A stretch of 64,000 nt of DNA from a bacterium. Lineage in GTDB: Bacteria; UBA8248. The notes below the pieces were generated by a model. The model worked only from the letters and a program-made list of their open reading frames with translations. It did no database searches and was not told the DNA's origin. The DNA lies in contig OZ253442.1 in assembly GCA_965261085.1 (NCBI GenBank), positions 2,848,001-2,912,000 on the forward strand, in the 5' to 3' direction. A program made the translations under genes and the position numbers. This document shows positions 39,048-52,029 of this stretch, one piece after another; within the stretch, counting starts at the first letter, position 1, and each line of letters starts with the position of its first letter.

Positions 39048-39377
39048 AAATTGCGGGGAAATGCGGGGTTCAGAAAAAGTTTTTATTTTCGATAAATTTC
39101 GATAAAATATTGATATTCTACTTTAATATATTCTGATAACTTACTAAATTAGATGGAAATATACTGTTAATACGACCCTCAAACCTTTCCATCAATTTAT
39201 CGATATTTATCGTATTTTTCAGTAATTCAAATTTCAGGGCCATCGCCGCGATCCCGGCGGGTTTCAGCGCTCCAGCGTCTCCGGCCATATCAAACTCCAT
39301 GTGCGAACCCATGTAGCCACCCCACGGTTCTTGAAGCTCCCCTACTCGTTCATCCATCCGCTTAAACCGCATCGAGT

Positions 39378-39687
39378 GGCTCCGAAAAACTTGATGATTC
39401 ACTATGTTCGCCCGTATGAAAGCGGCTGCAAGAGATGTAATCGTTCACCATGTTCGCCCTCATGAAACGGCTGCGAAAGACCTGATGATTCACCGGGTTC
39501 GCCCCTATGAACGGGCTGCGAGAGAGTCGATGCCTCCACCGGGCCCGCCCGTATGAAAAAGCTGCTTATCCTACTTCCCTGCCCCTATGAACAGGCTGCG
39601 AGGGACTCGATTTCTCCACCGGGCCCGCCCATATGAAAGAGGCTGCGAGAGAGTCGGCGCCTCCACCGGACTCGCCCATATGAAACC
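39378..39687 (+). repeat. Degenerate tandem array, 7 units of mostly 45-47 bp (one 34 bp)
   Basis: Core GCCCNYATGAA with its ATG at 39416, 39462, 39507, 39553, 39587, 39633 and 39680; usually followed by GCTGC..GA. Confidence 0.85.
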
Positions 39688-39776
39688 CTTCTCGTGGGGG
39701 ATTCTGGCGCATAAGGAAGATGGAGCGATAACGGGAATTGCGCGGAAATGCGTGATTCACGCTCGGTTGCCTCGCC

Positions 39777-39870
39777 GTCATTCCGGTGTCATTTCCGACT
39801 GAGGAGGGAGGAAATGCGGAATCTAGAACTAAAGTCGCTGGATCCCGGATTAGAGCACTCCGGGATGACA
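39777..39870. repeat. dRS3/NTS-like palindrome pair, first copy interrupted by the hairpin micro-element
   Basis: GTCATTCCGG[insert 39788-39816]CGGAATCTAG ... GGATCCCGGATTAGAGCACTCCGGGATGAC. Confidence 0.65.
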
Positions 39871-40113
39871 AGCAAACAGGTTCTTATTACTCCCCCCTTG
39901 AGGGTCAATTCCGACTGAAGAATGAATGATTGTTCCGACTGAAAAAGAAGAAATTCTCGCAATTGAAGAATGAGCAATTGTTTCGACTTATGAAGGAGGA
40001 ATTGCGTGCCGGTGTTTTTCCCATCCTCTGAAAACCCTCCCTTATCGGGGCTGTTGAAAAAGTCCCCCAAAAACAGGGGATGAATTTCTCAATCGACATA
40101 TGCTTATGAAATG

Positions 40114-40263
40114 ACTCCCCCCTTGAGGGGGAGTCGGCAAGGAGAGGACGGAGTCCGAAGCCGCGCCGGTGGGGGGAGCTTTTGTTTTGTGGAACCATAC
40201 CCCCCACGCATCAGCCTTCGCACAAACCGCTCGGCTTCTGCTACTCCCCCTCAAGGGGGGAGT
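40114..40263. mobile_element. REPIN/MITE-like element, copy A
   Basis: Terminal inverted repeats ACTCCCCCCTTGAGGGGGAGT / ACTCCCCCTCAAGGGGGGAGT, inner GTGGGGGG/CCCCCCAC. Confidence 0.8.
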
Positions 40264-40309
40264 AATTCCCTGAGGTGAAACCCGCCCGTATCCCGCTACA
40301 ACAGAACCC

Positions 40310-41473
40310 CTACCGGACAGGCCTGATCCTGTAGACCGCGCCTCTCTCCTCGGACAGAAACCAGAGCGCGCCGTCGGGCGCTTCGCGAACGTCGCGGACG
40401 CGGCCTGTCTCGGGGAAGGCCAAACGCTCCACTTCCCTGAAACCGCCTTTGGGGTCCAAGCGCGAGATATGGTCGAATTTGAGCGACCCGACGAAGAAAT
40501 GCCCGCACCAGGACGGCCAAAGCCGCCCCGAATAGATGGCCATTCCCGAGGGCGCGATAGAGGGGTCCCAATAGAAATCCGGCTGTTCCATGCCCTTTTT
40601 CGCGACGCCCACGCCAATTTTGGCCCCCGAATAGTGGCGGCCATAAGAGATGACCGGCCATCCGTAGTTCCGGCCCTTCCTGACCCGGTTTATCTCGTCT
40701 CCGCCCCGCGCGCCATGCTCGACGGCCCAGAGCGCACCCGCCGCGTCGAGCGCGGCGCCTTGGGGGTTCCTGTGGCCCCAGGACCAGATTTCAGGCCGCG
40801 CCCCCGCCCGCCCAACGAAGGGATTATCCGGGGGGACGCTCCCGTCGCGCCGTATACGGATAATCTTGCCGTTGTGGAGGGAGAGGTCCTGCGCCGTATC
40901 GGGGTCTCCCCTCTCGCCGAGCGTCAGAAAGAGTGTCCCATCCGGCGCCTCCACGACCCGCGAGCCGAAATGCCGGCCGCCTCGGGAGGGAGACGCCATC
41001 TCGAAAATAACGCGCAGGTTCTCTAATTTAAGGTTGTCGGATGAAAGGGCGGCAACGGCGAGCGCAGTACCTCCGCCGCGAAGGTAGCGTTTCGAAAAAG
41101 TGAGGAAAATCTCGCGGGTTAATGGAAAATCCCGCGCGGCGGTGACGTCCATAAGCCCGCCCTGCCCCCACGCATAGACTTTCGGGACGCCCGAGACTTT
41201 AATCCTTCGTCCCTTGATATCGAAGTGGTACAGCGCCCCGTCGCGCTCTGTGACCAGAAACGCTCCACCCGGAAGGAACGCCAGCCCCCAGGGCGTATCG
41301 AGACCCCTCGCCACCGCCTCGACCGAAACCGGGCCGCTCATTGTCCGCCGCGTCGCCGCCCAACCCGGCGTGGCGGAAAGCGTCAGGAGCAGTAAAACGA
41401 GGAGACACGGCAGGACGCCGCGACGGTTACTCGCCCTCGGATCAGGCGCTTTGTTTTTCCATGAAATTTTCAT
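40310..41473 (-). CDS. PQQ-dependent sugar dehydrogenase (GSDH/YliI family)
   Basis: PWGLAFLP, GQGGLMD, HFGSR, GHRNPQG, EHGARGGDEIN, NYGWP, SIAPSG, GRVRDV; signal peptide. Confidence 0.92.
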   Translation of the reverse strand: MKISWKNKAPDPRASNRRGVLPCLLVLLLLTLSATPGWAATRRTMSGPVSVEAVARGLDTPWGLAFLPGGAFLVTERDGALYHFDIKGRRIKVSGVPKVYAWGQGGLMDVTAARDFPLTREIFLTFSKRYLRGGGTALAVAALSSDNLKLENLRVIFEMASPSRGGRHFGSRVVEAPDGTLFLTLGERGDPDTAQDLSLHNGKIIRIRRDGSVPPDNPFVGRAGARPEIWSWGHRNPQGAALDAAGALWAVEHGARGGDEINRVRKGRNYGWPVISYGRHYSGAKIGVGVAKKGMEQPDFYWDPSIAPSGMAIYSGRLWPSWCGHFFVGSLKFDHISRLDPKGGFREVERLAFPETGRVRDVREAPDGALWFLSEERGAVYRIRPVR

Positions 41474-41588
41474 GATCTCCCTCCCGGCGGCCTTGGGCCG
41501 ATTCTATCGTGAGAGAAAGGCCGGGTGCTAGTGATCTTCCGAGCAAGGAGCGAGGAATTGCCGACCGATGAGTGGGGGGTGCGCTTTC

Positions 41589-41774
41589 GTAGGGACAGGC
41601 CCCTGTGCCTGTCCTGACTTGTCGACCAACAAAAAGGACAACCACGGAGGCAGACATATATCTCTGACCCTACGGAATTCCTGCAACCGTAATGGAACCG
41701 TAGGGACAGGTCGCGACCTGTCCTTACGCCTTTGCTCGTCATTCCGGCGCATGCCGGAATCCAGGCGGACGGGA
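41589..41774. repeat. Cluster of GTAG-type REPs plus a dRS3/NTS-like palindrome
   Basis: GTAGGGACAGGCCCCTGTGCCTGTCCT (41589), GTAGGGACAGGTCGCGACCTGTCCTTAC (41700), GTCATTCCGGCGCATGCCGGAATCCAGG (41738). Confidence 0.8.
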
Positions 41775-41799
41775 ATTGAAGTAATGTCGTCTGGAAAAT

Positions 41800-41978
41800 A
41801 CTCCCCCCTTGAGGGGGAGTCGGCAAGATGAGGACAAAGTCCGAAGTCGCGCCGGTGGGGGGTCAGCCCCGACTGAGGAAGGAGGGGCTGTTGAGCAAAG
41901 AATAAGGAATCGACCCCCCACCGATTCATCCTTCGCACAAAACGCTCGGCTTCAACGACTCCCCCTCAAGGGGGGAGT
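41800..41978. mobile_element. REPIN/MITE-like element, copy B
   Basis: Same terminal repeats and arms as copy A; carries the hairpin micro-element at 41862-41890. Confidence 0.8.
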
Positions 41979-42160
41979 AATTTCCTAACCAAAAAAGGAT
42001 GGTTCCATCGATTGGGCGGACCTGTGTGTCCGCCCAATCGACTTACGAACCCACTATGATTTGACGAAATCTCTCGTCGCCGATATACCATCGCATGTGT
42101 TCGTCGCCCGCCCTGAAGGATACCCGTTTCCATTTTGACACCGATTGAAGGAGCGAACCA

Positions 42161-43465
42161 TTGCTTGGTGTACTCTCCAAACCCAAGGACGAGATCGACA
42201 TCGCCGACATCCAGCATCTCATCGACTCTGAAGTTCCCGAGGTTGAGCAGATAGAATTCAAGAGTTCCCTGCCAGCAAAGGGAGATGGTTCTCCCGATCC
42301 TTGGATATCCGGCCAAGGGTCGATTGGAGACCGAGCGAAAAACGAAATACTGAAAGAAGCCGTCGCCTTCGCAAACGCACATGGCGGCGCTTTGCTGTTG
42401 GGTATCAAGGAGTCAGAGAGCAAGCCACCCATCGCCACAGAAATCTCGCCCATCCCGCGATGCGCGGAGTTGGCTGAACGCCTGAAGCTGATATTCCGAG
42501 ATCGCGTAGAGCCGCCGCTTCCCGTGCTTGATGTTTTCGCCGTTCCGGCAGAAGGCGAAGCGGGCGTCGTCGTCATCCGTGTCGGGCGCTCGCGGAACGC
42601 CCCCCACCGCGTTACAAAAACGCTCGTTTGCCCGGTTCGGCGAGCCGATAGATGCGAGGAGATGAGCATGCGGGAAATTCAGGATATGACATTGAACGTA
42701 TCGCGGGGTCTTGAGCGGTTGGATAAACGGCTTGCCGAACGTTCCGAACACTTCAGCGATGAATTTAAGCACCTTGAAACTCCTGAGGATGCCTTCGGCT
42801 TCCGTATGACTGCTGCTCCAGTGGGAGATGAAATTCGATTTGATCGTGTTTTTAGTCAGGGAAGAATCACGAAGGAATATGATACCCCGTGGTATACGGT
42901 TGAGCAGGAAAGCAACGGCAACAAACGAGTGTTTGATTATCCGATTGATTGGCCCCCTCAATCTTGGAGACCAATTCTGCGCGGTGCACGAGCGGAACTC
43001 GGCACTGCTTTTCCGGGAGAACTTTACAACTGTTACAGGGAGCTACATGGCGATGGGCTTGTCGAGATTGGGTTCTTCTCAGGCAGTTCGATTATCCGTG
43101 AATCGCCTTTGCCGCCGGACTGGTTTATCGTAATGTTTACGAACCTCTCTGTTTGGGCTGATCACATTCGAAAGCAAACTGATTCCCCAACAACGGAATA
43201 TGCGCTTGAGGTAGAGACACGTACTTTTGGGAACCCAGTGCTCATAGGAAATAACACTGTTTTTTTTAATGCGATGCGTTCAGGAGTAAGCGGCTTAGAG
43301 GGCCATTTCCCGAAACTATTAGATTTGAATTTCCCCAGATATTCCCTAGGCAGTAGCGATGAGATACCCAAACTCCTCGCTTTGTTTCATCGCGATTTCT
43401 GGAATGCTCTAGGTATAGATGCCGGGCAAGAAGAAAATAATTTAATAATAACGGAGGTGGCTTAA
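42161..43465 (+). CDS. Schlafen/AlbA_2 domain protein with an unassigned C-terminal domain
   Basis: EVEQIEFK, KEAVAFANAHGGALLLGIKE, V.RS..APH, R...M...EI; TTG start with GAAGGAG. Confidence 0.85.
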   Translation: MLGVLSKPKDEIDIADIQHLIDSEVPEVEQIEFKSSLPAKGDGSPDPWISGQGSIGDRAKNEILKEAVAFANAHGGALLLGIKESESKPPIATEISPIPRCAELAERLKLIFRDRVEPPLPVLDVFAVPAEGEAGVVVIRVGRSRNAPHRVTKTLVCPVRRADRCEEMSMREIQDMTLNVSRGLERLDKRLAERSEHFSDEFKHLETPEDAFGFRMTAAPVGDEIRFDRVFSQGRITKEYDTPWYTVEQESNGNKRVFDYPIDWPPQSWRPILRGARAELGTAFPGELYNCYRELHGDGLVEIGFFSGSSIIRESPLPPDWFIVMFTNLSVWADHIRKQTDSPTTEYALEVETRTFGNPVLIGNNTVFFNAMRSGVSGLEGHFPKLLDLNFPRYSLGSSDEIPKLLALFHRDFWNALGIDAGQEENNLIITEVA

Positions 43466-43483
43466 TCAGGCGGTTCGCGAATT

Positions 43484-43661
43484 GTGGGGCAACCCCGAGG
43501 AGGGGTTCGCCCCTACCCCACTCTATAACGCTACTCAACAAACAGGGCAGACACACAGGTCTGCCCCTACAAAGCAATTGCCCTTTTCTTCATCCAATAA
43601 CGCGACGCGGGGTAATCCGAACCGCAAGGTGGCTTCAAGGGACGCATATATGCGTCCCCTA
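43484..43661. repeat. Cluster of three GTAG/CTAC-type REP palindromes
   Basis: GTGGGGCAACCCC...GGGGTTCGCCCCTAC, AGGGCAGACACACAGGTCTGCCCCTAC, AGGGACGCATATATGCGTCCCTAC. Confidence 0.75.
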
Positions 43662-43722
43662 CACCTCCATATCAAACGGCTACGCGAAACCCCCTCCCCC
43701 ACAATCCCCGCCAGCATGAAAC

Positions 43723-44034
43723 CTACGCCGTGGCTTCCTCGCGCAGGGGTTTCGTAAACGCGATGGCGGCCACGTCGAAGTACTCGAGGCTCGCGTTGTT
43801 CGCCCGGCGGAAGCTGCGCTGTTTCTCGGAGTTGAACCAGGCGTCGGCGGTGGCCTTGTCCTCGAAGTGATAGACGGACGCCATGCGGCCCGCCTCCTCG
43901 TTCATGCCCCACGTCTTGTCGATGAGGCCGGGCACTTCGTTCTCGAAAAAGGCTGCGGATTTCTCCTTGTCCTCACGAACCTCGGCGAGCGTGGGCGCAA
44001 CGGCGGGATAGTGTAGAATGACCATCATCATCAT
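43723..44034 (-). CDS. YdhR-like dimeric alpha-beta barrel protein (putative monooxygenase)
   Basis: VPGLIDKTW..NEE.G....VY.FED...A.AW; AGGAGG upstream of the ATG run. Confidence 0.65.
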   Translation of the reverse strand: MMMMVILHYPAVAPTLAEVREDKEKSAAFFENEVPGLIDKTWGMNEEAGRMASVYHFEDKATADAWFNSEKQRSFRRANNASLEYFDVAAIAFTKPLREEATA

Positions 44035-44200
44035 AAAGTCCTCCTGGGTGTCTGGATTGGCTTTGGTTGTCATCGTCCTTTTGATGTTCTGCGGGCAATG
44101 ATAGCCCAGGGGAGCGAATCCGCCAAACGCTGTAAGGGCGCGCAGTAGCCGGAAATTTAAGCAAGCAAGAAAACTTCAAGCGAAAAAGGAGTGCGAACAG

Positions 44201-45148
44201 ATGAGTGAGGCGGCGTATCAGGAGATATACGAACGGGCGCAAGCGAACCTGGAAAAATCAGGCGCGGAAAACCCCTACGACATCCTGGGGCCCGACCTGC
44301 CCGGCACCGAGACGGCGCTGGCGGGGTATGAGCGATTCGGCTTGAGAATGCGCCTGATGCTGACGGATAAGGCGGATACCGGGTTCGACTTCATGGGCAA
44401 GAAGCTCAGATGCCCCGTCATGACGGGTTCGATGAGCGCGAACACCCTGGCGGCCCACTGGGCGGATGGTTTCTTGCAAGTCGCCGAGGGCGCGGCGCGT
44501 TTCGGAACGCAATACTGGATAGGCGACTGTGAGGATGATACCTGGCGCGAGGCCGCAGCCTCCTACCCATCCGCCATCCGGGTCGTGAAGCCCTGGCGGG
44601 ACAAGCAGCGCACCTTGGCCTCGCTCAAACTCGCGGAAGACACAGGCGCGTTCGCCGTAGGCATGGATTTCGAATCGGGCTTTTACAACCCCGAATGCGA
44701 ACCGCAAAGAGCGGATGCGCTCGAGGGCTACGTGAAGGCCACGGGTCTTCCCTTCGTATTCAAGGCGGTGGGCTCGGTCGAGACCGCGCGCATCGCCCGC
44801 GACGCCGGGGCTGCGGCAATCATCGTCACCACGCACGGCGGAGCTCACGGGCCTTCGTGGGGCCACCCCGTGGAAATTCTCCCTGAGATCGTGGACGCGG
44901 TGGGGGACGACGTGCTCGTGCTGGCGGAAAGCGGCGTCCGTAGAGGAGACGACGTTTTGAAACTCCTGGCCCGTGGGGCCAAGGGGGTGACTTCGGGCCG
45001 GGGCCTCGTGCTCGGGCTGTTCGCAGGCGGACCGGCAGGCGTGGTCGAGATGCTGGAACTTTTGGAAGAAGAACTCAAAAAATCCATGGTCATGGCGGGT
45101 TGCAAGGATTTGGCCTCGATTTCCGGGGATATCCTGATCCCGAGGTAG
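44201..45148 (+). CDS. Divergent FMN-dependent alpha-hydroxy-acid oxidase-family protein
   Basis: LPFVFK, HGG, ESGVRRGDDVLK.LA.GA..V..GR, EELKKSM..AGC. Confidence 0.8.
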   Translation: MSEAAYQEIYERAQANLEKSGAENPYDILGPDLPGTETALAGYERFGLRMRLMLTDKADTGFDFMGKKLRCPVMTGSMSANTLAAHWADGFLQVAEGAARFGTQYWIGDCEDDTWREAAASYPSAIRVVKPWRDKQRTLASLKLAEDTGAFAVGMDFESGFYNPECEPQRADALEGYVKATGLPFVFKAVGSVETARIARDAGAAAIIVTTHGGAHGPSWGHPVEILPEIVDAVGDDVLVLAESGVRRGDDVLKLLARGAKGVTSGRGLVLGLFAGGPAGVVEMLELLEEELKKSMVMAGCKDLASISGDILIPR

Positions 45149-45249
45149 GTCGAACCCGACAGAGGAGGGAGGGTTCGCCGACTGAAGAAGGAGCGATTGC
45201 GGTTTCCCGACCGAAGAGGTTTGCACTTCTCCTTATGACCTTCAATATC

Positions 45250-45427
45250 ACTCCCCCCTTGAGGGGGAGTCGGTGAGGTAAGGGCGCAAGCCCTCAAGCG
45301 AACCGGTGGGGGGTCAACCTTGACTGAGGAAGGCGAGGCTGCCAAGCGAGGAACGAGGAATTCACCCCCCACCAGCGCGACTTCGGGCTTCGCCCTCGTC
45401 TTGCTGACTCCCCCTCAAGGGGGGAGT
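45250..45427. mobile_element. REPIN/MITE-like element, copy C
   Basis: Same terminal repeats. Its right arm is the reverse complement of the left arm of copies A/B; micro-element at 45313-45341. A GTAG REP follows at 45463-45489. Confidence 0.8.
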
Positions 45428-45505
45428 AATGGCTCGATGACAGCAATCTTCGGTTCGAAATTGTAGGGGCGGGCCCCTGTGCCCGCCCTCGTATGTTGGT
45501 TGCCA

Positions 45506-46597
45506 TCACACCGCATCGGGCAAAAGCGGCAAAAGGTATTTCCCGAAATTGCGGGCTTCCTCATCATGCGGCCAGCCGGAGAGGATGAACGTGGTCGCGC
45601 CCACCTCGATGTACTCGCGCATGGCGTCGGCCACCACCTCGGGGCTTCCCACGAGCATGGTGCCCGCCCCCTGGCGCACGAGGTTGATGCCGGAGAAAAG
45701 CGCAGGGCCGTGCCAGAGTTTTCCCTCCGCCGTCATGGCGTTCATGCGCTGCTGGGAGACGGATTCCACCTGTCCTGCGATCTCTCCAGTGACGGATGAA
45801 CTCTCCCCGTAAGAGGCCGTGCCCGCGATGATGGCCTCGGCCTCTTCCCTGGCCTGCGCGTCGTCCTCGCGCACCAGAATATGGAAGCGCACGCCGAGCT
45901 TGAGATCGCGGCCATGCTCCTCGCGCGCCATTTTCTTCACCTCCTCAAATTCCTCGGCTATCTGCCAGGGGGGTTCCCCCCATTTGAGGAAAACGTCGGC
46001 GTGTTTGGCGATGACTTTTTTCGCCGCGGGCGAGCTTCCCCCGAAATAAAGGGGAGGCCCTCCCCTGCGCGCGGGGCCGGGGAAGACGAAGCCGTCCTCC
46101 ACCTGGTAGTGCGCGCCCTCGTAGTTGACCCTGGCATCCTCATCCGCCCAGAACGCGCGCACGATGTCCAGAAACTCGTCTGCCCGCTCATAGCGCCCGT
46201 CATGATCCGCCCAGTCCCCGTAGCGGCGCGCATCCACGGATGATCCGCCGGGCACGACGTTCACCGTGAGCCTCCCGCCCGAGATGAGATCGAGCGTATT
46301 CGCCTGCTGCACGGCGAAGGTCGGCGTGGTGAGGCCGGGCCTTATGGCGACGCAGAATTTTATACTCCTGGTTTCACGCGCAATCGCCGAGGCGAGGAGC
46401 CAGCCGTCAGAACACGAGGTGTTGCACGGAATGAGCATGTTCGTAAGGCCGCTCACCTCCGCCGTTTTAGCCACGTGGACGAGATAGTCGATTTCGGGGG
46501 GAATCTCGACCTCGCCGGTGCCGAGCCTGGTGGCGTCGCCCCTTTTGTTCGAGGGCAGATACCAGGCGTATTCGATGGGTTGTTTCTTGGTGGTCAT
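45506..46597 (-). CDS. LLM-class flavin monooxygenase, SsuD/SfnG-like
   Basis: WYLP..GD, VAIRPG..PT, SGGRL.VNVV.G, DHDGRYERADEFL, PPLYFGGSS.AA, WGEP, LVGSPE.VA, FILSG.PH. Confidence 0.85.
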   Translation of the reverse strand: MTTKKQPIEYAWYLPSNKRGDATRLGTGEVEIPPEIDYLVHVAKTAEVSGLTNMLIPCNTSCSDGWLLASAIARETRSIKFCVAIRPGLTTPTFAVQQANTLDLISGGRLTVNVVPGGSSVDARRYGDWADHDGRYERADEFLDIVRAFWADEDARVNYEGAHYQVEDGFVFPGPARRGGPPLYFGGSSPAAKKVIAKHADVFLKWGEPPWQIAEEFEEVKKMAREEHGRDLKLGVRFHILVREDDAQAREEAEAIIAGTASYGESSSVTGEIAGQVESVSQQRMNAMTAEGKLWHGPALFSGINLVRQGAGTMLVGSPEVVADAMREYIEVGATTFILSGWPHDEEARNFGKYLLPLLPDAV

Positions 46598-46772
46598 TGC
46601 GTGTGCGTCCTTTAATGCTGTGTTTCATTAAATAAAAATTCGCGTCGTGCCGCCCGGCCCGTAAGTTTGCGAATAAAAACACCCCGCCCGCAAGGGGGCG
46701 AGACATTTAATATGAGCGCCTGCAGATAGCGCGTGGCGGCGGATGCGACGCGCCTCAGGACGCGGTGAGGAC

Positions 46773-48698
46773 TCAGCCGATCATGCCGCCGTCGTCGCGC
46801 GTGATGGCGACCACGGACGAGCGGGGCGTGGTGTCGCCGCCGTCGGGGAAATGGCTGTCTCCCTTTTTCTCGCCGGGGTGCTGGATGCCCACGAACATGG
46901 TCTTCCCGTCCGCGCTCCACTCGATGCCCGTGACCTCGCATTGTCTGGGACCCACCATGAAGCGGCGGATCTCGCCCGTCACCGGGTCGCCCACGAGCAT
47001 CTGGTTGTTGCCCTGCCCGGCGAAGCCCTTGGTGTTCGTGTATTTCCCGTCGGTCTGAATCCACAACATGCCGTTTTTGTCGAACGCGAGGCCGTCGGGC
47101 GAGTTGAACATGTTATAGGGCGTGACGTTTTTGGAACCCGCGTTCGCGCCCTTGTGGACGGCGGGGTTGCCCGCGACCACGTAGAGGTCCCACGAGAAGG
47201 CCGTCGAGAGATGATCGCCTCCGTCCGGCGCCCAGCGCACGATCTGCCCGTAGCGGTTGTTCGCCCGGGGGTTCGGCCCGCCGACGGGAGTGGCGTCGCC
47301 GCCCTTGTTGGGCTTCTTGCCCCGGTTCTTGTTGTTGGTGAGACAGCAGAAGACTTCCGCTTTCTTGGGGTTCGCAGCCACCCACTCGGCGCGGTCCATG
47401 GTGGTGGCTGCAACAGCGGAGGCCGCGATGCGCGTGTCGATGCATATCTCCGCCTGAGAGGCCATTCCCGTGGTTTTGGGCGTAAGCTCCACCCACTCGC
47501 CCCGGCCGTTTTCGTCGAACTTCGCCGCGAAGAGTTTTCCGGTTTCTAAGAGATTCGAGTTGTCCCCGCTCTCGGCGTAGCGCCCATCGCTCACGAACTT
47601 GTAGATGAACTCGCCGCGCTCGTCATCGCCCATGTAGACGACCACCCGGCCGCCTGCGGCGAGCACGACTTCTCCGTTCTCGTGCTTGAAGCGCCCGAGC
47701 GCGGTGCGCTTTTTGGGCGTGGACTTGGGGTCGAGCGGGTCGATCTCGACGATGTAGCCCGCGCGGTTCGGCTCGTTGGGGTGTTTTGCGATGTCGAAAC
47801 GCTCATCCGTCGTCTCCCAGCGATATCCCCAGCCCTTGGCGCCTACGCCGTAACGCTTGAACGCGGGCCCAATCTCGATGTCGGGGTCGCTCGATGAGAA
47901 GTAGCCGTGAAAATTCTCCTCACACGTGAGATACGTGCCCCAGGGCGTCGCGCCGTTTCCGCAGTTGTTCCAGGTGCCGAGCGAGCGCACACCTTGAGGA
48001 TCCGCGGCCGTCTTCATGAGCGCATGGCCCCGGGCGGGTCCGGTGATGTCCATCGGCGTGTCGGGCGTGATCTTGCGGTTATAAGGCGAGTCTTTGACGA
48101 TCGACCATCTACCGTTCTTCCGGGCAATCTCCATGACGGACACCCCGTGGGCCGCTTTGCTCTTTCTCACGTCGTCTGCGGTCGCTGGCTTTCCCCCGCC
48201 CACCCCGCCGTGGATGATGTCCACGTTCACGTATTCGTTGTTGACGGCGAGGACGTTCTTGCCCCCGGCTTGGAAGAGCGACATGCCGTCGTTGTTGTCG
48301 CCGAAGGCGAGTTCCTGGCTCGCGCCCGTGCCGCGCGTCGCGTGGTCAAACTCGGGTCCTCGCGTCCACATGGGGTCTCCCCACCTTGCGACGACGTGCC
48401 AGTTGTAGCCCTTGGGCACGGTGATCGTATCGAGCGTATTGGCGGGCACGGCCTCGAAGCCGAAGCGGTTCGAACCGGCAAAGGCGGAGAGCGGGTCGAC
48501 CCCTCCCGCGCTCATGACGAACGCCGTCGCGGCGAAGGCCGCCCCCCGGCTCAGGAAGCCCCGCCGGGAGATCATCTTGTCCACCAGCTTTTCGAAATCA
48601 GTCGCTTGCGGCCGCGGATAGTGGATTTCGTCGAACTCATCCGGCGAGCATTCCTCATGCGCGGCGAGCTGCGCGTCGCGCGTTCGGTCTTCGTGCAT
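46773..48698 (-). CDS. phoX: PhoX-family alkaline phosphatase (Tat-exported)
   Basis: Tat motif SRRGFL, GDNNDG, NNCGNG.TPWGTYLTCEEN, LGRFKHE, MDRAEW, SPDGL, CEVTG, IQHPG. Confidence 0.92.
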   Translation of the reverse strand: MHEDRTRDAQLAAHEECSPDEFDEIHYPRPQATDFEKLVDKMISRRGFLSRGAAFAATAFVMSAGGVDPLSAFAGSNRFGFEAVPANTLDTITVPKGYNWHVVARWGDPMWTRGPEFDHATRGTGASQELAFGDNNDGMSLFQAGGKNVLAVNNEYVNVDIIHGGVGGGKPATADDVRKSKAAHGVSVMEIARKNGRWSIVKDSPYNRKITPDTPMDITGPARGHALMKTAADPQGVRSLGTWNNCGNGATPWGTYLTCEENFHGYFSSSDPDIEIGPAFKRYGVGAKGWGYRWETTDERFDIAKHPNEPNRAGYIVEIDPLDPKSTPKKRTALGRFKHENGEVVLAAGGRVVVYMGDDERGEFIYKFVSDGRYAESGDNSNLLETGKLFAAKFDENGRGEWVELTPKTTGMASQAEICIDTRIAASAVAATTMDRAEWVAANPKKAEVFCCLTNNKNRGKKPNKGGDATPVGGPNPRANNRYGQIVRWAPDGGDHLSTAFSWDLYVVAGNPAVHKGANAGSKNVTPYNMFNSPDGLAFDKNGMLWIQTDGKYTNTKGFAGQGNNQMLVGDPVTGEIRRFMVGPRQCEVTGIEWSADGKTMFVGIQHPGEKKGDSHFPDGGDTTPRSSVVAITRDDGGMIG

Positions 48699-48773
48699 TT
48701 CCGCTTCCCCCACGTTGTGAGATTCGGGCCAATTCTCGGCGCTTGGGCGCGCCCGCATCAGTCATCTGCGCGG

Positions 48774-48829
48774 ATTATAGCGGCCTCTCATCTCACGCGC
48801 GTTACAAAATGGTGGAAAGTTCATGAAAA
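48774..48829 (-). promoter_or_regulatory. Putative Pho-box promoter of phoX
   Basis: Minus strand has heptamers at 11-bp period, TTTTCAT / TTTCCAC / TTGTAAC / (GTGAGAT), then 10 nt, then a perfect TATAAT. Confidence 0.55.
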
Positions 48830-48928
48830 ACGGGCGATGGCGGTCAACCCCGAACAAGGAGGGGTTGTTGAAAAACCCGGTTTCGAGAGCGGGCGCGTTC
48901 CTCTCGTCTTGCATGGCCACCATATCGA

Positions 48929-49071
48929 CCTCACCCTGAGTAGCCGCCGAAGGTCAAGCGCGACTGAGAAAGGAGCGTTTGTATCGAAGGGCGCTCCCCT
49001 TCGATGCGCTCCCGATGCGCCCCGGCTCTCCCTCGATACGGCGCGCGAGCGCGCCTACTCGGGATGAGGGT
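48929..49071. repeat. Inverted repeat pair of the CTCACCCTGAG...TCGAAGGG type, left copy carrying the micro-element
   Basis: CCTCACCCTGAGTAG...GTATCGAAGGG versus CCCTCGATAC...CTACTCGGGATGAGG. Confidence 0.6.
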
Positions 49072-49124
49072 GGAGTGACGTCGCGGGTAAAACGCGAGTG
49101 ATGAATGTCAAATCCGAGTGAGGA

Positions 49125-49316
49125 GGGGTTGTTGAAAAAGACCCCTTTTTAGAGAGTAGAGGGGACACCCCTTTCGACTGGTAAAAGCAACCCCCCTGTC
49201 CCCCCTTGTCAGGGGGGCTTTTCTTCCACCCCCTCGTCGGGGGGCATCGCCTTTACCCCCCTGACAAGGGGGGACAGGGGGGTTGCTCCCTTGACAAAGG
49301 CTTTTTCAACAGCCCC
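49125..49316. mobile_element. 192-bp MITE with 16-bp TIRs and a 5-bp target-site duplication
   Basis: GGGGTTGTTGAAAAAG / CTTTTTCAACAGCCCC (15/16 match), flanked by GAGGA at 49120-49124 and 49317-49321; empty-site copy at ~49339-49384. Confidence 0.85.
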
Positions 49317-49576
49317 GAGGAGCGAGGATTTGTTTGCCGCGAGTGATGAATGTCAAACCGAGTGAGGAGCGAGGATTTGTTTGCAGACCGACGAGGAGGT
49401 ATTACGCGCATGGGCGGCGAATGCGCCGCAGGCATTTCCCTTGAGGGACTTTTTCAACTCCCCCTCAAGGTGGGAGTGAATATATGACTACTCACCTTTT
49501 GTGACGTAGGGATAGGACGAGACCTATTCGGGTCCTTCCCCTCCCCGGTCGCGATTAATCGCCGCGCCGGAACGGC

Positions 49577-50614
49577 TCAAGCCGATTCGAGCGCCGCTTC
49601 GACCTTGCGCGCCACGTCGGCCGGAACCCAGTTCTTCCAGACCTTGTTGGTCTTCAAGAAATGGATCGCGGTGGCCGCGGCGTCGCCGCCGGCTTTTTTT
49701 TCGAGATAGGAGAGCATCTTCGAGACGAGCTCGGACGAGAGGACGTACTTCTCGATGAAGGCGACGGCCTCGGGGTTTTCGGCCGCGAACTTCGCCGTGA
49801 CCGACTTCAGAAGCGCCATCGTCCGGTAGGCGGTCGCCTTCTTGGGATTCCCCATCGCCTCCACCCCGCCCTTCTTGAGCGCGTTCGCGTGTTTCATCAT
49901 CTCGTCCCAGTCGGCCTCGCTCCACGCAGGCTCCTCGAGCTGGACGAGGTCGAGTTGTCCCAGGAGCGGCGTCGGCGCCCAGTAATAGGCCAGGATCGGC
50001 TTTTTCTTGAGATACGCACCCTTGATGGCCGCCGCGAGCGCGCCGCCCGAGCCGGGCCGGAAATTGGTGAAGTGTTTTTCCAGCCCGTAGGCGCGCAGCT
50101 TCACCGTGTTGATGACCTCGCACGCCCAACCGGGTATGCAGTTCACGAACCGGCCCTTGGAGGGTTCTTCAGGGTCCTTGAAGAGGCGCTTGTACTTCGC
50201 CAGATCGTAAACCGATTTAAGGCCCGGGTTCGCCTTCTGGACGTAGCGCGGTATGAACCAGCCCTGAATGCTGTCGGGCGTGTTGACGCCCAGCATCTTG
50301 ACCTTGCCGCTCTTCATGGCGAGGTCGTACTGATCCTTCGTGCTGTCGTACCAAAGCTCCATGATCAGGTCGTTCTTCCCCTCGTAGTGGGCCGCCATGG
50401 TCGGCAGCGTGCCGCCGTAGATGAGCCGCACCCGGCAGCCGTAACCGTGCTTCAGGATGAAGGCCACCACCTGATCGTGAAAATTGGCGCTGTCCCAGTT
50501 CAGGTCGCCGATACGAACACTGCAGGCGGCGTCCGCTCTGCCGGGGCCGGAGACGAGAAGCGCCGGCCCGATGATGACGATGAAAACGACGATAATCAAA
50601 AACTTGAGCTTCAT
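49577..50614 (-). CDS. Glycine betaine/histidine-type ABC substrate-binding protein (OpuAC/ProX family)
   Basis: LNWDSA, ILKHGYGC, ELW, FKDPEEPSKGRF.NC.PGW.C, PGSG.AL, YYWAPT; start MKLKF at 50614 after GGAGG. Confidence 0.88.
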   Translation of the reverse strand: MKLKFLIIVVFIVIIGPALLVSGPGRADAACSVRIGDLNWDSANFHDQVVAFILKHGYGCRVRLIYGGTLPTMAAHYEGKNDLIMELWYDSTKDQYDLAMKSGKVKMLGVNTPDSIQGWFIPRYVQKANPGLKSVYDLAKYKRLFKDPEEPSKGRFVNCIPGWACEVINTVKLRAYGLEKHFTNFRPGSGGALAAAIKGAYLKKKPILAYYWAPTPLLGQLDLVQLEEPAWSEADWDEMMKHANALKKGGVEAMGNPKKATAYRTMALLKSVTAKFAAENPEAVAFIEKYVLSSELVSKMLSYLEKKAGGDAAATAIHFLKTNKVWKNWVPADVARKVEAALESA

Positions 50615-50768
50615 GACCGGCCTCCGATGTGTAGGCATTCCGGACGGGATGCCCTCCACTTGTGCATGCGGGTTTTTGGAAGATGAAAATATAGGACGCA
50701 GACCCTGCAAGTCAAACCTGTGGAAATTAGGCTTTGAGTGTAGGGTGTGTGATGAGAGATTGGGAATC

Positions 50769-50937
50769 ACTCCCCCCTTGAGGGTCAAACCCGATTGAGG
50801 AATGAGGGATTGTCGGTGAGGTAAGGGCGTAAGCCCGTAAGCGAACCGGTGGGGGGAGTTTTATTTGAGAATCGCCCCCCACCGCATCAGCCTCGTCCAA
50901 GGACTCGGCTTCTGCGACTCCCCCTCAAGGGGGGAGT
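50769..50937. mobile_element. REPIN/MITE-like element, copy D
   Basis: Same ends, with the left palindrome interrupted by the micro-element at 50784-50812; left arm as in copy C, right arm as in A/B. Confidence 0.8.
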
Positions 50938-51144
50938 GATTCCGAATACCTAGTTTTTTCTACTTGCCGACGAACTCCCCATTTCGGAGAAGCCCGATCC
51001 CTAAAGGGGGGAATAATTCCCAACTTTGCGTCACGCCCCCCTCCCCCGCCCGCGCTTCCCAAAGGCGCGCGCAGCCTGTAGATTAAAAGCCGTCAATTTT
51101 AGGCCCACAACACCCTGAGAACGCCTCATCGCCCCGAGAACCGG

Positions 51145-52029
51145 ATGAACCCCCAGCTCATCGCCGCATCCTACGCCATGTCCACCGCGGTGGTTTTCGC
51201 CACCTTCAGCGTGTTCATCAGAAAGGGCAGCGAGCACGCCAACGCGCTCACGGGCGTTTTCATCGGCATGTTCAGCTCCCTGCCCGTGATGATCGCCATC
51301 ACCTGGTATTACTGGGAGCCGGAATGGTGGAATCTCCCTGCGTTTTTCTACTTCACGCTGGCGGGGCTCACGGGGCCGGCCATGTCGCGCGTGTTCCTTT
51401 ACCTGAGCATCTCCTATCTGGGCGTCGCGCGCGCCATGCCGTTCGTCTCGCTGACTCCTTTGTTCTCCACCTCGCTCGCCATCATGTTCATCGGCGAAAG
51501 TCCGGGCGTGCTCATCCTGGCGGGCACCATCTCCATCGTGCTGGGCAGCATCACGCTCAGCTACAAGAAGCCCGAGGACACCTCCTGGCAGCGAAAACAC
51601 CTCTGGCTCGCGTTTGGGAGCGCCGTCACCGCAGCCCTCTCGTTTCTCTTTAGAAAACTCGCCTTCGCCTACGTCGCGGCCCCCATCATGGGCGCCACGC
51701 TTTCTACGCTGACGGGGTTCATCTTTCTCGTCACCTTCATCCCGTTTTTCCCGAAAGATCAAAAACCAAACCAGTTCCACGTCCCCAGGGCATGGCTCAT
51801 CTACGGCTGGTGCGGGCTGCTGAACGCATTAGGGTTTTTCCTGCATTTCACCGCCATCAGCATGGGCGATCTCTCGGTCGTGGCGCCCCTCACCTCGACG
51901 GCCCCCATCTTCAGCCTCACCATGAGCTTCTTCCTGCTCAGGCGCATGGAGCGCATCACGCCCACCATCATCATCGGCACGGCCTGCATGGTGATCGGCG
52001 CCGCCCTCATCGGCTGGCGCATCCGCTGA
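51145..52029 (+). CDS. DMT/EamA-family transporter
   Basis: About 10 TM helices, GVARA.P, GE.P, GDLSVVAPL.ST.P.F. Confidence 0.88.
   Translation: MNPQLIAASYAMSTAVVFATFSVFIRKGSEHANALTGVFIGMFSSLPVMIAITWYYWEPEWWNLPAFFYFTLAGLTGPAMSRVFLYLSISYLGVARAMPFVSLTPLFSTSLAIMFIGESPGVLILAGTISIVLGSITLSYKKPEDTSWQRKHLWLAFGSAVTAALSFLFRKLAFAYVAAPIMGATLSTLTGFIFLVTFIPFFPKDQKPNQFHVPRAWLIYGWCGLLNALGFFLHFTAISMGDLSVVAPLTSTAPIFSLTMSFFLLRRMERITPTIIIGTACMVIGAALIGWRIR

What the first reader, a model, noticed from the sequence alone, without database searches (positions are those of the whole stretch)
39788..50812. Strand-polar ~29-bp hairpin micro-element with a fixed purine loop and a co-varying stem, nested inside other repeats
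Seen: the layout GT + 7-nt arm + 13-nt loop (consensus GACTGAGGA(A/G)GGA) + 7-nt arm recurs with different arms that still pair. Perfect stems: CATTTCC/GGAAATG (39790-39816), CAGCCCC/GGGGCTG (41864-41890), CGAACCC/GGGTTCG (45151-45177). Near-perfect: CAAGCGC/GCGTTTG (48955-48981, one G-T), CAAACCC/GGGATTG (50786-50812, one mismatch), CAACCTT/GAGGCTG (45315-45341), CAAATCC/GGATTTG (from 49109, split by a MITE). Degenerate copies lie at ~39904, ~41533, ~45178, ~48843 and ~49352. Every copy I found is on the + strand. Several sit inside three unrelated palindrome families: at 50784 the element replaces the GGGAG that copy C has at the same place, and the same insertion point is used at 39904. Established: REP/dRS3-type hairpins are acted on as ssDNA by RAYT HUH enzymes and Ssn GIY-YIG nucleases, and those repeats usually conserve stem sequence. 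Inference: this family is recognised through loop plus structure and is spread by a trans-acting enzyme with replication-strand bias. The right arm sometimes resembles the displaced target (GGGATTG vs GGGAG), hinting that the stem is templated from the target. This is my best candidate for an undescribed system here.
Basis: partly seen in the sequence, partly recalled or inferred. Interest (0 to 1): 0.8.

Follow-up and report, generated by a model that had tools for sequence, protein, structure and literature searches.

The report
Tiny dispersed DNA hairpin repeat family
A 27-base DNA hairpin with a fixed purine-rich tip and freely changing but always pairing stem is scattered about 150 times through this uncultured marine bacterium and its sister species, sits inside other repeats, and is the favourite landing site of a jumping gene, which makes it a rare second example of a very small hairpin repeat that seems to move.

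Summary
The hairpins are real at the stated coordinates, but they are not strand-polar. Genome-wide there are 101 to 145 copies, half on each strand, with no significant replichore bias and no bias relative to neighbouring genes. They are mostly intergenic. The family occurs in 21 of 22 sister species, usually at over 100 copies.

The "13-nt loop" is structured: 7-bp variable stem, tandem G.A pairs, 2 covarying pairs, then a GANRA pentaloop. A conserved RRGGT tag precedes the stem.

Copies fill two fixed sites in a ~190-nt palindromic host repeat (93 empty versus about 45 filled), nest in each other's tips, and replace a few target bases without any duplication. Orthologous intergenic regions differ in content between species.

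An IS1182-family insertion sequence sits in the pentaloop, duplicating exactly those 5 bases, in 14 of 22 full copies and 11 of 44 MITEs. This is strong indirect evidence that the DNA hairpin forms in vivo.

No RAYT gene is present, and the IS110 copies are unrelated. The host repeat is a gene-less derivative of a small DUF559-nuclease element.

Best reading: a REP/SDR-like small dispersed hairpin repeat acting at the DNA level, with its mobilising enzyme unidentified. It is a new variant of a known kind.

The parts
39788..39816 (+). Intact micro-hairpin: GT + CATTTCC + GACTGAGGAGGGA + GGAAATG
   Evidence: model hit
39904..40004 (+). Site-A insertion in a host palindrome (ACTCCCCCCTTGAGG^GT CAATTCC GACTGAAGAATGA ATGATTG), followed by a 4-unit array of tips with 24-nt period
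   Evidence: (array listed at genome 2887913)
41862..41890 (+). Intact micro-hairpin (CAGCCCC/GGGGCTG) at site B, the centre of a ~190-nt host repeat, just after GGTGGGGGG
45149..45177 (+). Intact micro-hairpin (CGAACCC/GGGTTCG) directly after the stop codon of gene 44201-45148
45178..45199 (+). Older unit (tip GACTGAAGAAGGA + right arm GCGATTG) whose left arm was replaced by the preceding copy. The orthologous intact copy is in species G019.
   Evidence: L039 versus L031
45313..45341 (+). Micro-hairpin (CAACCTT/GAGGCTG, 6 of 7 pairs) at site B of a host repeat
48843..48860 (+). Left half of a micro-hairpin (GGT CAACCCC GAAC AAGGA) abutting an IS1182-type terminal inverted repeat that starts at 48861
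48953..48981 (+). Intact micro-hairpin (CAAGCGC/GCGTTTG, one G.T)
49107..49124 (+). Left half of a split micro-hairpin: GT CAAATCC GAGT + GAGGA (pentaloop, first copy of the 5-bp duplication)
49125..49316 (.). 192-bp MITE derived from the IS1182-family element (ends GGGGTTGTTGAAAAAG ... CTTTTTCAACAGCCCC), inserted in the pentaloop
49317..49332 (+). Right half of the split micro-hairpin: GAGGA (second copy of the duplication) + GCGA + GGATTTG, complementary to 49109-49115
49352..49379 (+). Neighbouring unsplit copy of the same variant (left arm one base short)
50784..50812 (+). Site-A insertion (CAAACCC/GGGATTG, one mismatch) replacing GGGAG of the host palindrome
41534..41560 (+). Degenerate copy (tip GAGCAAGGAGCGA, right arm GGAATTG)
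   Evidence: read directly; below the model threshold

Best explanation
This is a genus-wide family of very small, non-coding, dispersed DNA hairpin repeats, comparable to REPs and to cyanobacterial SDRs.

Anatomy: a 5' tag RRGGT, a 7-bp stem of free sequence (mostly CA.....C paired with G.....TG), and a conserved structured tip. The tip consists of tandem G.A/A.G pairs, two covarying Watson-Crick pairs and a GANRA pentaloop.

Shown:
- The hairpin is conserved as a structure while the stem sequence drifts by compensatory change.
- Copies lie on both strands, mostly between genes.
- Copies occupy defined points in other hairpin repeats in a filled-or-empty fashion, nest in each other's tips, replace a few target bases, and leave no target duplication.
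- Copies turn over between species.
- An IS1182-family insertion sequence and its MITEs integrate exactly into the pentaloop and duplicate exactly those 5 bases. This is indirect evidence that the DNA folds into a hairpin or cruciform in vivo.

Inferred: the element spreads at the DNA level through a structure-dependent, hairpin-to-hairpin transaction that swaps an arm of a target hairpin for a new hairpin. A trans-acting enzyme would recognise tip plus structure. The likeliest candidates are the hairpin-targeting IS1182-family transposase, or repair of breaks made by the DUF559 nuclease that belongs to the host repeat. Neither link is demonstrated.
For: Structure:
- 69 of 224 loop hits have 7 of 7 pairs, against 7.3 expected.
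- There are 30 distinct fully pairing stem pairs, and 8 of 9 pairs show changes on both sides.
- The upper pair 4/10 reads T-A 35, C-G 30 among 71 distinct sequences.
- ViennaRNA folds recover the extended helix.
- Single mismatches in stems are G.T 14 versus A.C 4.

Distribution:
- 140 model hits in this genome. This is a lower bound, because only 150 of about 2350 candidates were scored.
- 21 of 22 sister species have hits, 16 of them with 71-153 hits. Outside the genus hits are nearly absent.
- 89 of 101 copies are intergenic, with 35 in convergent spacers.

Filled and empty sites:
- Of 166 instances of CTCCCCCCTTGAGG, 93 continue GGGAGT and 45 continue GT + hairpin + TCG.
- The mirror form CTCCCCCTCAAGG (111 instances) is filled at most once.
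- One identical variant sits in three different host-repeat subfamilies.
- 37 of 260 GGTGGGGG sites were flagged as filled by a loose tip match (up to 2 substitutions, arms not required to pair); about 30 look like genuine hairpins by eye and some are IS/MITE junctions.
- 48 copies in other contexts still carry RRGGT.

Nesting: nested copies and arrays with a 20-24 nt period.

Turnover:
- The orthologous spacer in 11 species is 68-465 nt with different repeat content. Only G019 shares a copy, and G000 has a further copy replacing its left arm.
- The G006 orthologue of the 50.8-kb host repeat has the opposite occupancy at sites A and B.

IS targeting:
- 14 of 22 full IS copies and 11 of 44 MITEs have a 5-bp duplication equal to tip positions 5-9, flanked by complementary arm halves.
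- The transposase matches NF033551 (IS1182 family) at 356 bits.
- Related IS copies in other species sit in 5-nt loops of other palindromes.
- Wan et al. 2017 (PMC5678879; abstract, section 22 and passages read) describe stem-loop targeting, and both loop-duplicating and stem-loop-replacing outcomes, for an IS1182-family member.
Against: - No enzyme is tied to the element. The 9 genes flanked by copies on both sides are ordinary metabolic genes.
- The micro-hairpin ends do not resemble the IS ends in the orientation a MITE would need.
- The IS was not found in 3 of 16 copy-rich species. Those three are assemblies of 190-470 contigs.
- DUF559 orthologues occur in only 5 to 7 of 22 sister species.
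- No same-locus filled/empty pair within one species could be obtained; the read-laying attempt was uninformative.
- 53 of 101 copies lie inside the host repeat, so part of the copy number comes from the host's own spread.
- The G.T excess would also fit an RNA-level role.
Confidence: 0.6

Rival explanations
1. Passive passenger. The hairpin has no mobility of its own. Copies multiplied because they ride in the ~190-nt host repeat and in MITEs, and by local slippage. Pairing is kept because cruciform-forming modules are favoured or simply hitch-hike.
For: 53 of 101 copies lie at site A or B of the host repeat. Six identical copies lie in one 200-nt MITE family. Tandem arrays with a 20-24 nt period exist. 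Host units are 95-100% identical across species, so the host repeat itself is active or constrained.
Against: 48 of 101 copies lie elsewhere, with a conserved RRGGT flank. 93 empty and about 45 filled host sites coexist, and at least 10 stem variants occur at one site. One variant occurs in three host subfamilies that share only about 15 nt on one side and 3-4 nt on the other. Copies nest inside other copies, and arms are replaced between species.
Confidence: 0.17
2. RNA-level element. The hairpin is a transcribed protein-binding or stabilising stem-loop, with GGA-rich tips as for CsrA-type sites or a GNRA-like pentaloop as in boxB. Covariation would then reflect RNA structure.
For: The RNA fold is strong: -17.8 kcal/mol, z -3.05 for 41859-41895. 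G.T exceeds A.C in single-mismatch stems, 14 versus 4. The tip is purine-rich, with GGA and Shine-Dalgarno-like strings.
Against: In co-directional spacers 22 copies are sense and 20 antisense. Copies are not conserved at orthologous genes. Copies are nested in other repeats and in each other. There is no Rfam match at any copy at E up to 1. The IS duplication of exactly the pentaloop points to a DNA hairpin.
Confidence: 0.13
3. One reading: a REP-like repeat mobilised as single-stranded DNA by a RAYT/HUH or GIY-YIG enzyme, with replication-strand polarity and a stem copied from the target.
For: The architecture (conserved unpaired 5' tag plus hairpin) resembles tagged REPs (Di Nocera 2013 abstract). 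All window copies are on one strand.
Against: PF01797 is absent from this one-contig genome, and its control search rang in 6 of 14 genomes. It matches in 11 of 23 genomes of the genus, unrelated to copy number. Strand counts are 72+/73-, and leading versus lagging is 82 versus 63. The only GIY-YIG match is in a 655-aa frame. Stems are not target-derived.
Confidence: 0.05

Closest known systems
Small dispersed repeats (SDR1-8) of Nostocaceae cyanobacteria (Elhai et al. 2008, Genome Res 18:1484)
   Same: Very small size (21-27 nt there, 27-29 nt here). Hairpin supported by compensatory changes. Insertion inside short palindromes, MITEs and copies of themselves. No known enzyme. These properties are recalled from the abstract, because the paper is not held. 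A passage in PMC5861425 confirms that SDR5 inserts in the HIP1 palindrome and that no SDR-like repeat was found outside Nostocaceae.
   Different: A different phylum (relatives' record titles read 'Nitrospinota bacterium'). Here the tip is conserved and the stem is free. An RNA intermediate was proposed there; here the evidence is at the DNA level (IS duplication of the loop). Sequence likeness to SDRs could not be tested.
REP / BIME palindromic units and tagged REPs (Di Nocera 2013, abstract read; Bertels and Rainey 2011, passages)
   Same: Short extragenic hairpins in high copy number. An unpaired conserved tag at one end. Enrichment between convergent genes. Mosaic arrangement with other repeats.
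   Different: The tag is RRGGT, not GTAG or CGTC. The stem varies and the tip is conserved, the reverse of REPs. No RAYT gene is present. Copies are mostly single rather than inverted doublets.
REPs as IS targets (Tobes and Pareja 2006, abstract read; IS1397 in palindromic units, seen only as a reference entry)
   Same: A transposase with high selectivity for a dispersed hairpin repeat.
   Different: Here the IS belongs to the IS1182 family, and the 5-bp duplication coincides exactly with the apical loop.
IS1272 / IS1182-family stem-loop-targeting transposition (Wan et al. 2017, PMC5678879)
   Same: An IS1182-family transposase that selects stem-loops by structure. Their model includes an outcome that duplicates only the loop, as seen here, and one that replaces the stem-loop.
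   Different: IS1272 replaced whole stem-loops without a duplication. Here the IS duplicates the loop. The arm-replacing behaviour belongs to the micro-hairpin itself, whose link to this transposase is only inferred.

Membership tests
REP (GTAG/CGTC-tagged) with RAYT | 20-40 bp extragenic palindrome in high copy number | tested here: met
   27-29 nt; 101-145 copies; 89 of 101 intergenic
REP (GTAG/CGTC-tagged) with RAYT | Unpaired GTAG or CGTC tag at one end (Di Nocera 2013 abstract) | tested here: not met
   The tag is RRGGT: GGT in 69 of 101 copies; RRGGT profile in 48 copies
REP (GTAG/CGTC-tagged) with RAYT | Cognate Y1/RAYT transposase gene in the genome | tested here: not met
   PF01797 gives 0 matches in G000, with a working control
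Cyanobacterial SDR | 21-27 nt dispersed repeat with a hairpin supported by compensatory changes | tested here: met
   (definition recalled; paper not held)
Cyanobacterial SDR | Nested in itself, in MITEs and in short palindromes | tested here: met
Cyanobacterial SDR | Sequence relationship to SDR1-8, and restriction to Nostocaceae | not testable with these tools
The host here is not a cyanobacterium.
MITE of a DDE transposon | Terminal inverted repeats matching an IS, plus a target-site duplication | tested here: not met
   No duplication; target bases are replaced instead. The arms resemble the IS tips only in the inverted order.
Rfam RNA families | Match to a curated covariance model | tested here: not met
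   No match at any copy at E up to 1 in window 38000-52000
CsrA-type RNA site | GGA in a hairpin loop of an mRNA, in sense orientation near genes | tested here: inconclusive
   GGA strings are present but mostly paired in the model. Orientation is 22 sense and 20 antisense. The presence of csrA was not tested.
Preferred target of an IS1182-family IS | IS flanked by the two halves of the hairpin, with the loop duplicated | tested here: met
   14 of 22 IS copies and 11 of 44 MITEs; one example in the window at 49107-49332

The most novel reading that the evidence does not exclude
The 27-nt hairpin is itself a minimal mobile DNA. A structure-specific enzyme resident in these genomes recognises the G.A-mismatched tip of the extruded hairpin and pastes the hairpin into other hairpins by swapping an arm, with no duplication. 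The enzyme would be either the hairpin-loop-targeting IS1182-family transposase or the Vsr-like DUF559 nuclease carried by the host repeat. That would make it the smallest DNA transposon-like unit known outside cyanobacteria, with a defined candidate enzyme and a substrate that can be tested with oligonucleotides.
Probability: 0.25. Interest if true: 0.85.

Novelty: new variant of a known kind. Interest (0 to 1): 0.6.

Why it matters
Very small dispersed hairpins that appear to move have been described in one cyanobacterial lineage only, and their mechanism has stayed open since 2008.

This is a second, unrelated lineage with three advantages:
- A cleanly defined structure.
- Clear filled and empty sites.
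- Co-resident candidate enzymes, one being a transposase family already suspected of reading stem-loops.

The exact match between the IS duplication and the predicted pentaloop is indirect in vivo evidence that such repeats extrude as DNA hairpins. It also gives a simple oligonucleotide-level assay for structure-specific transposition.

Separately, the host repeat turns out to be the gene-less form of a ~0.5-kb unit that carries a DUF559 nuclease. That suggests a function for a widespread domain of unknown function.

Tried and rejected
1. Read laying. Four public runs were laid on window 39300-51000. All are short assembled contigs that break at the repeats, so no contig bridged a hairpin in a way that could show a filled or empty allele. 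Nothing can be concluded from this.

2. Group II intron reverse transcriptase as mobiliser.
- The purine tract before its start codon resembles the tip. It ties for rank 6-9, with 5 regions scoring higher, of about 3,530 upstream regions scored.
- It does not fold alike, and the model gives only 5.2 bits, E 3.1.
- Homologues are missing from copy-rich G008 and G015.
- The second reverse transcriptase (RT-RNase H) is unique to G000.
- Rejected.

3. IS110. Four copies exist, none in or beside a hairpin.

4. RAYT: rejected. For Y2/IS91 transposase there was no match, but the control rang nowhere, so this is uninformative.

5. Genes flanked by hairpins on both sides. There are 9, all metabolic or transport genes.

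6. Six identical copies suspected to mark an IS end turned out to lie in a 200-nt MITE.

7. TnpB-like fragment: not near any copy, and not pursued.

Elhai et al. 2008 is not held, so comparison with SDRs rests on recall and on one citing passage. Supplementary files were not consulted.

9. Literature searches found no description of this repeat, nor of a repeat associated with DUF559. The searches were: Nitrospinota/sponge/repeat (listing only); DUF559 with repeat and hairpin (listing only); DUF559 alone (25 papers, 20 listed, titles and abstract starts only).

Full report
**What is at the coordinates.** The 13-base core with up to two mismatches occurs 13 times in the window against 2.75 expected, and 0 of 100 shuffles reach 13. 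Twelve of the 13 are on the + strand. The copy at 49107 is indeed split: a 192-bp MITE (49125-49316) lies between its two halves, whose arms CAAATCC and GGATTTG pair perfectly.

**Genome-wide census.** The window lies at 2,848,001-2,912,000 of a one-contig genome of 4,267,820 bp with 58.7% G+C.
- A loop expression GAYYGRNNAR[GTC]GA finds 224 sites.
- 69 of these have 7 of 7 arm pairs and 101 have at least 6 of 7. When arms are shuffled among the same hits, 7.3 and 31.6 are expected.
- Allowing one substitution in the tip gives 145 copies with at least 6 pairs.
- A covariance model built from 30 copies with distinct, fully pairing stems finds 140 matches at E up to 0.01. Only 150 of about 2350 candidates were scored, so this is a lower bound.
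- No Rfam family matches any copy at E up to 1.

**Structure.** The stem truly covaries. On the 30 distinct stems, 8 of 9 pairs show changes on both sides and there are 22 additional pair types. These rows were chosen for pairing, so the 98% paired figure is by construction; the diversity of pair types is not.

The "13-nt loop" is not a loop:
- Positions 1-2 (GA) face positions 12-13 (GA) as tandem G.A pairs.
- Position 3 pairs with 11: C-G 58, T.T 9, T.G 3, C.C 1.
- Position 4 pairs with 10: T-A 35, C-G 30, T.G 4, C.A 2, among 71 distinct sequences.
- This leaves a 5-base apical loop, GANRA.

Minimum-energy folds with DNA and RNA parameters give this extended helix. Among stems with a single non-Watson-Crick position, G.T outnumbers A.C by 14 to 4, counting distinct arm pairs. 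With two such positions the counts are 9 and 8. This is a modest sign that the purine-rich strand is the one that folds. A 5' tag is conserved independently of context: in 48 copies outside the host repeat, positions -5 to -1 read R(37) R(42) G(31) G(37) T(38).

**Not strand-polar.**
- Copies are 50+/51- or 72+/73-.
- GC skew places the switch points near 0.5 and 2.63 Mb. The purine strand is the leading strand in 82 copies and the lagging strand in 63, which is not significant.
- The weak local clustering of orientation disappears once copies within 3 kb are merged.
- The window's 7 of 7 on + is therefore a local run.
- With a crude gene call (3533 genes), 89 of 101 copies are intergenic. 35 lie between convergent genes, which make up 20% of intergenic length, and 12 between divergent genes, which make up 22%. 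In co-directional spacers 22 are sense and 20 antisense.

**Context and junctions.** Many copies sit at two fixed points of a ~190-nt palindromic host repeat. This host repeat is made of two inverted ~65-nt units of the form ACTCCCCCCTTGAGGGGGAGT...GGTGGGGGG.

Site A:
- Of 166 instances of CTCCCCCCTTGAGG, 93 continue GGGAGT (empty) and 45 continue GT + hairpin + TCG.
- 8 carry a different hairpin that begins GTCGGG.
- The mirror-image arm (111 instances of CTCCCCCTCAAGG) is filled at most once. Insertion is therefore specific to one arm.
- The filled form lacks GGGAG and shows no duplication.
- At least ten stem variants occur at this one site. A single variant (CAATCCC-GATTGAAGAATGA-GGGATTG) sits in three different host subfamilies.

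Site B lies just after GGTGGGGGG. Of 260 such sites, 37 were flagged as filled by a loose tip match that did not require pairing arms; about 30 of these look like genuine hairpins by eye, and some are IS or MITE junctions.

Copies also nest in the tips of other copies, after TGARG, and they form arrays with a period of 20-24 nt in which only one arm survives per unit.

**Relatives and turnover.** The model finds the family in 21 of 22 other species of the genus.
- Six species, mostly those with the smallest genomes, have 0-18 hits.
- Outside the genus there is one marginal hit and three hits in one genome of another family, G030.
- Record titles of relatives read "MAG: Nitrospinota bacterium" or "MAG: bacterium".

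The spacer between genes 44201-45148 and 45506-46597 is syntenic in 11 species examined, but it ranges from 68 to 465 nt and holds unrelated repeat content. Only G019 has a hairpin directly after the stop codon. That copy corresponds to the armless second unit of G000, whose left arm has been replaced by a further hairpin of another stem type.

The closest species available (G008, with genes 87-94% identical) shares none of the window's copies in the two spacers examined. The G006 orthologue of the host repeat at 50.8 kb has the opposite occupancy of sites A and B.

The exact 29-mer of the commonest variant is shared only with G008, G006, G018 and G014, that is 4 of 22 species. Host units, by contrast, are 95-100% identical across species whose genes are 74-93% identical.

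**An insertion sequence reads the hairpin tip.** A 1522-bp element ends in GGGGYTGTTGAAAAA and encodes a 480-aa transposase. It matches NF033551 (IS1182 family) at 356 bits against a cut-off of 270, and also matches Pfam DUF772 and DDE_Tnp_1. There are 22 full copies and 44 MITE derivatives.
- In 14 of 22 full copies and 11 of 44 MITEs, the element is flanked by a 5-bp direct repeat that is exactly tip positions 5-9 (GAGGA, GATGA, GAGAA, GAAGA, GAAAA and others).
- The remaining tip bases and complementary arm halves lie on either side.
- Further copies show one recognisable half.

One locus was taken from each of 9 other genomes:
- In 4, the related IS sits in the TTGAG/CTTGA loop of the host palindrome with a 5-bp duplication.
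- In 1, it sits in the TTGTC loop of another palindrome.
- In 2, it is beside the host palindrome with unclear ends.
- 1 is elsewhere, and 1 is at a contig end.

This matches what Wan et al. 2017 propose for IS1272, which they place in the IS1182 family. They describe targets that are stem-loops of unrelated sequence, and outcomes that duplicate the loop, duplicate the whole stem-loop, or replace it (PMC5678879; abstract, section 22 and discussion passages read).

The agreement between the duplicated 5 bases and the predicted pentaloop is independent support for the structure inferred from covariation, and it indicates a DNA-level hairpin. The IS was found in 13 of the 16 copy-rich species; the three misses are assemblies of 190-470 contigs. 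It was found in 0 of the 6 copy-poor species, and also in G030 and G032 of another family. These species are related, so this is not an independent correlation.

**Search for a cognate enzyme.**
- PF01797 (RAYT/Y1) is absent from G000. In the genus it matches in 11 of 23 genomes, without relation to copy number.
- The IS110 copies lie elsewhere.
- The nine genes with hairpins on both sides are metabolic.
- The group II intron reverse transcriptase was considered and rejected.
- The single DUF559 gene (G000 1,673,587-1,673,976, minus strand; PF04480 E 1.4e-39) is embedded in host-repeat units.
- In G017, and in G032 of another family, its orthologue sits exactly in the centre of a host repeat. 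It lies between GGTGGGGGG and CCCCCCACC, which is the place that hairpins occupy at site B.
- The ~190-nt host repeat is therefore best read as the gene-less derivative of a ~0.5-kb unit that carries a Vsr-like nuclease.
- Orthologues at 72-80% identity occur in 4 sister species plus G032, and weaker relatives in 3 more.
- The host palindrome occurs in exactly the 16 copy-rich species, in none of the 6 copy-poor ones, 35 times in G032 and once in G030. G032 has the host repeat but no micro-hairpin, so the two are separable.

**Interpretation.**

Shown:
- A structurally conserved DNA hairpin repeat that is dispersed, orientation-neutral and extragenic.
- It is polymorphic at defined sites, nested, and rapidly turned over.
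- It is used as a landing pad by a hairpin-reading IS.

Inferred: it spreads by a structure-dependent DNA transaction that exchanges part of a target hairpin for a new hairpin. The target is an arm of the host palindrome, or an arm or tip of another copy.

The absence of a duplication and the loss of a few target bases fit the staggered attack on an extruded cruciform that Wan et al. propose. They also fit templated repair of nuclease breaks. I cannot tell these apart, and no enzyme is linked to the element by direct evidence. An RNA-level role and purely passive spread remain possible and are scored as rivals.

**Comparison with what is known.** The closest known things are:
- The cyanobacterial SDRs: same size class, compensatory hairpin, nesting, enzyme unknown. 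They are reported only from Nostocaceae.
- REP/BIME elements: a tag plus a hairpin, extragenic, and used as IS targets.

The element fails REP membership on the tag and on RAYT. It is not a MITE. I file it as a new variant of the small-dispersed-hairpin kind.

Noticed in passing
G000:C1:1673587-1673976 (locus L119 1285-1677, minus strand); L124 1411-1915 (G017); L125 1370-1925 (G032): A 120-130-aa DUF559 (Vsr-like PD-(D/E)XK) gene sits exactly in the centre of the ~190-nt palindromic host repeat, between GGTGGGGGG and CCCCCCACC. The host repeat therefore looks like the gene-less derivative of a ~0.5-kb nuclease-carrying unit. The 73%-identical copy in another family (G032), with identical 21-mers, suggests horizontal spread. 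No paper among the 20 of 25 listed for 'DUF559' describes this (titles and abstract starts only).
   Followed up: partly
window 49125-49316; 22 full copies in the genome, for example G000:C1:3287388-3288909: An IS1182-family IS and its MITEs insert in 5-nt apical loops of several unrelated hairpin repeats, duplicating the loop. Variants in different species prefer different hairpins.
   Followed up: yes
window 41589-41616, 41700-41727, 45464-45490; many in L032-L042: GTAG-type REP-like palindromes (GTAGGGACAGG...CCTGTCCCTAC, GTAGGGGTCGCATATATGCGACCCCTAC) fill the spacers of all the species examined, yet this genome has no PF01797/RAYT match.
   Followed up: no
genome-wide, for example G000:C1:2539092 and 4135675 (minus-strand index): A second, unrelated hairpin (GTCGGGCTTTCCGAGGGGAAAGTCCG, 8 copies beginning GTCGGG) occupies the same site A of the host palindrome with the same junctions. 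The site therefore accepts hairpins of different families.
   Followed up: no
L081, L084, L085, L088 (G007, G001): The copy-poor, small-genome species carry a sister family with the same CAATCCC/GGGATTG stem but a shorter tip, GACARGGCGGA.
   Followed up: no
window 39060-39230; also G000:C1:2933575-2933618 and 787632-787676: An AT-rich module (...TTTATCGATATTTATCGTATTTTTCA) is conserved between G000 and G008 downstream of gene 37944-39047. It recurs immediately 5' of micro-hairpins elsewhere.
   Followed up: no
window 39380-39720: About six tandem units of roughly 55 nt (…CTGCGAGAGA.TCGATG.CTCCACCGGGCCCGCCC.TATGAA…) lie in the long spacer. They are absent from the G008 orthologue.
   Followed up: no
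window 49577-50788: This 403-aa gene lies here in G000 and G006, but its G008 homologue (87% identical) is at a distant locus, and G008 has only about 395 nt in its place. The gene is bracketed by repeat clusters, which suggests a repeat-mediated rearrangement.
   Followed up: no
G000:C1:1149126-1151020 and 1694504-1696249: The first is a single group II intron (Rfam D1-D4 at 156 bits, with a reverse-transcriptase/maturase ORF). The second is a separate 582-aa protein with reverse transcriptase, maturase and RNase H domains that has no counterpart in 22 sister species.
   Followed up: partly
G000:C1:280395, 2516249, 3784818, 3790286: Four near-identical IS110-family copies. Three share a conserved left flank (TAATCAAAAC.AAAGCGGAT.CATT.AAAC), which is probably their specific target.
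   Followed up: no
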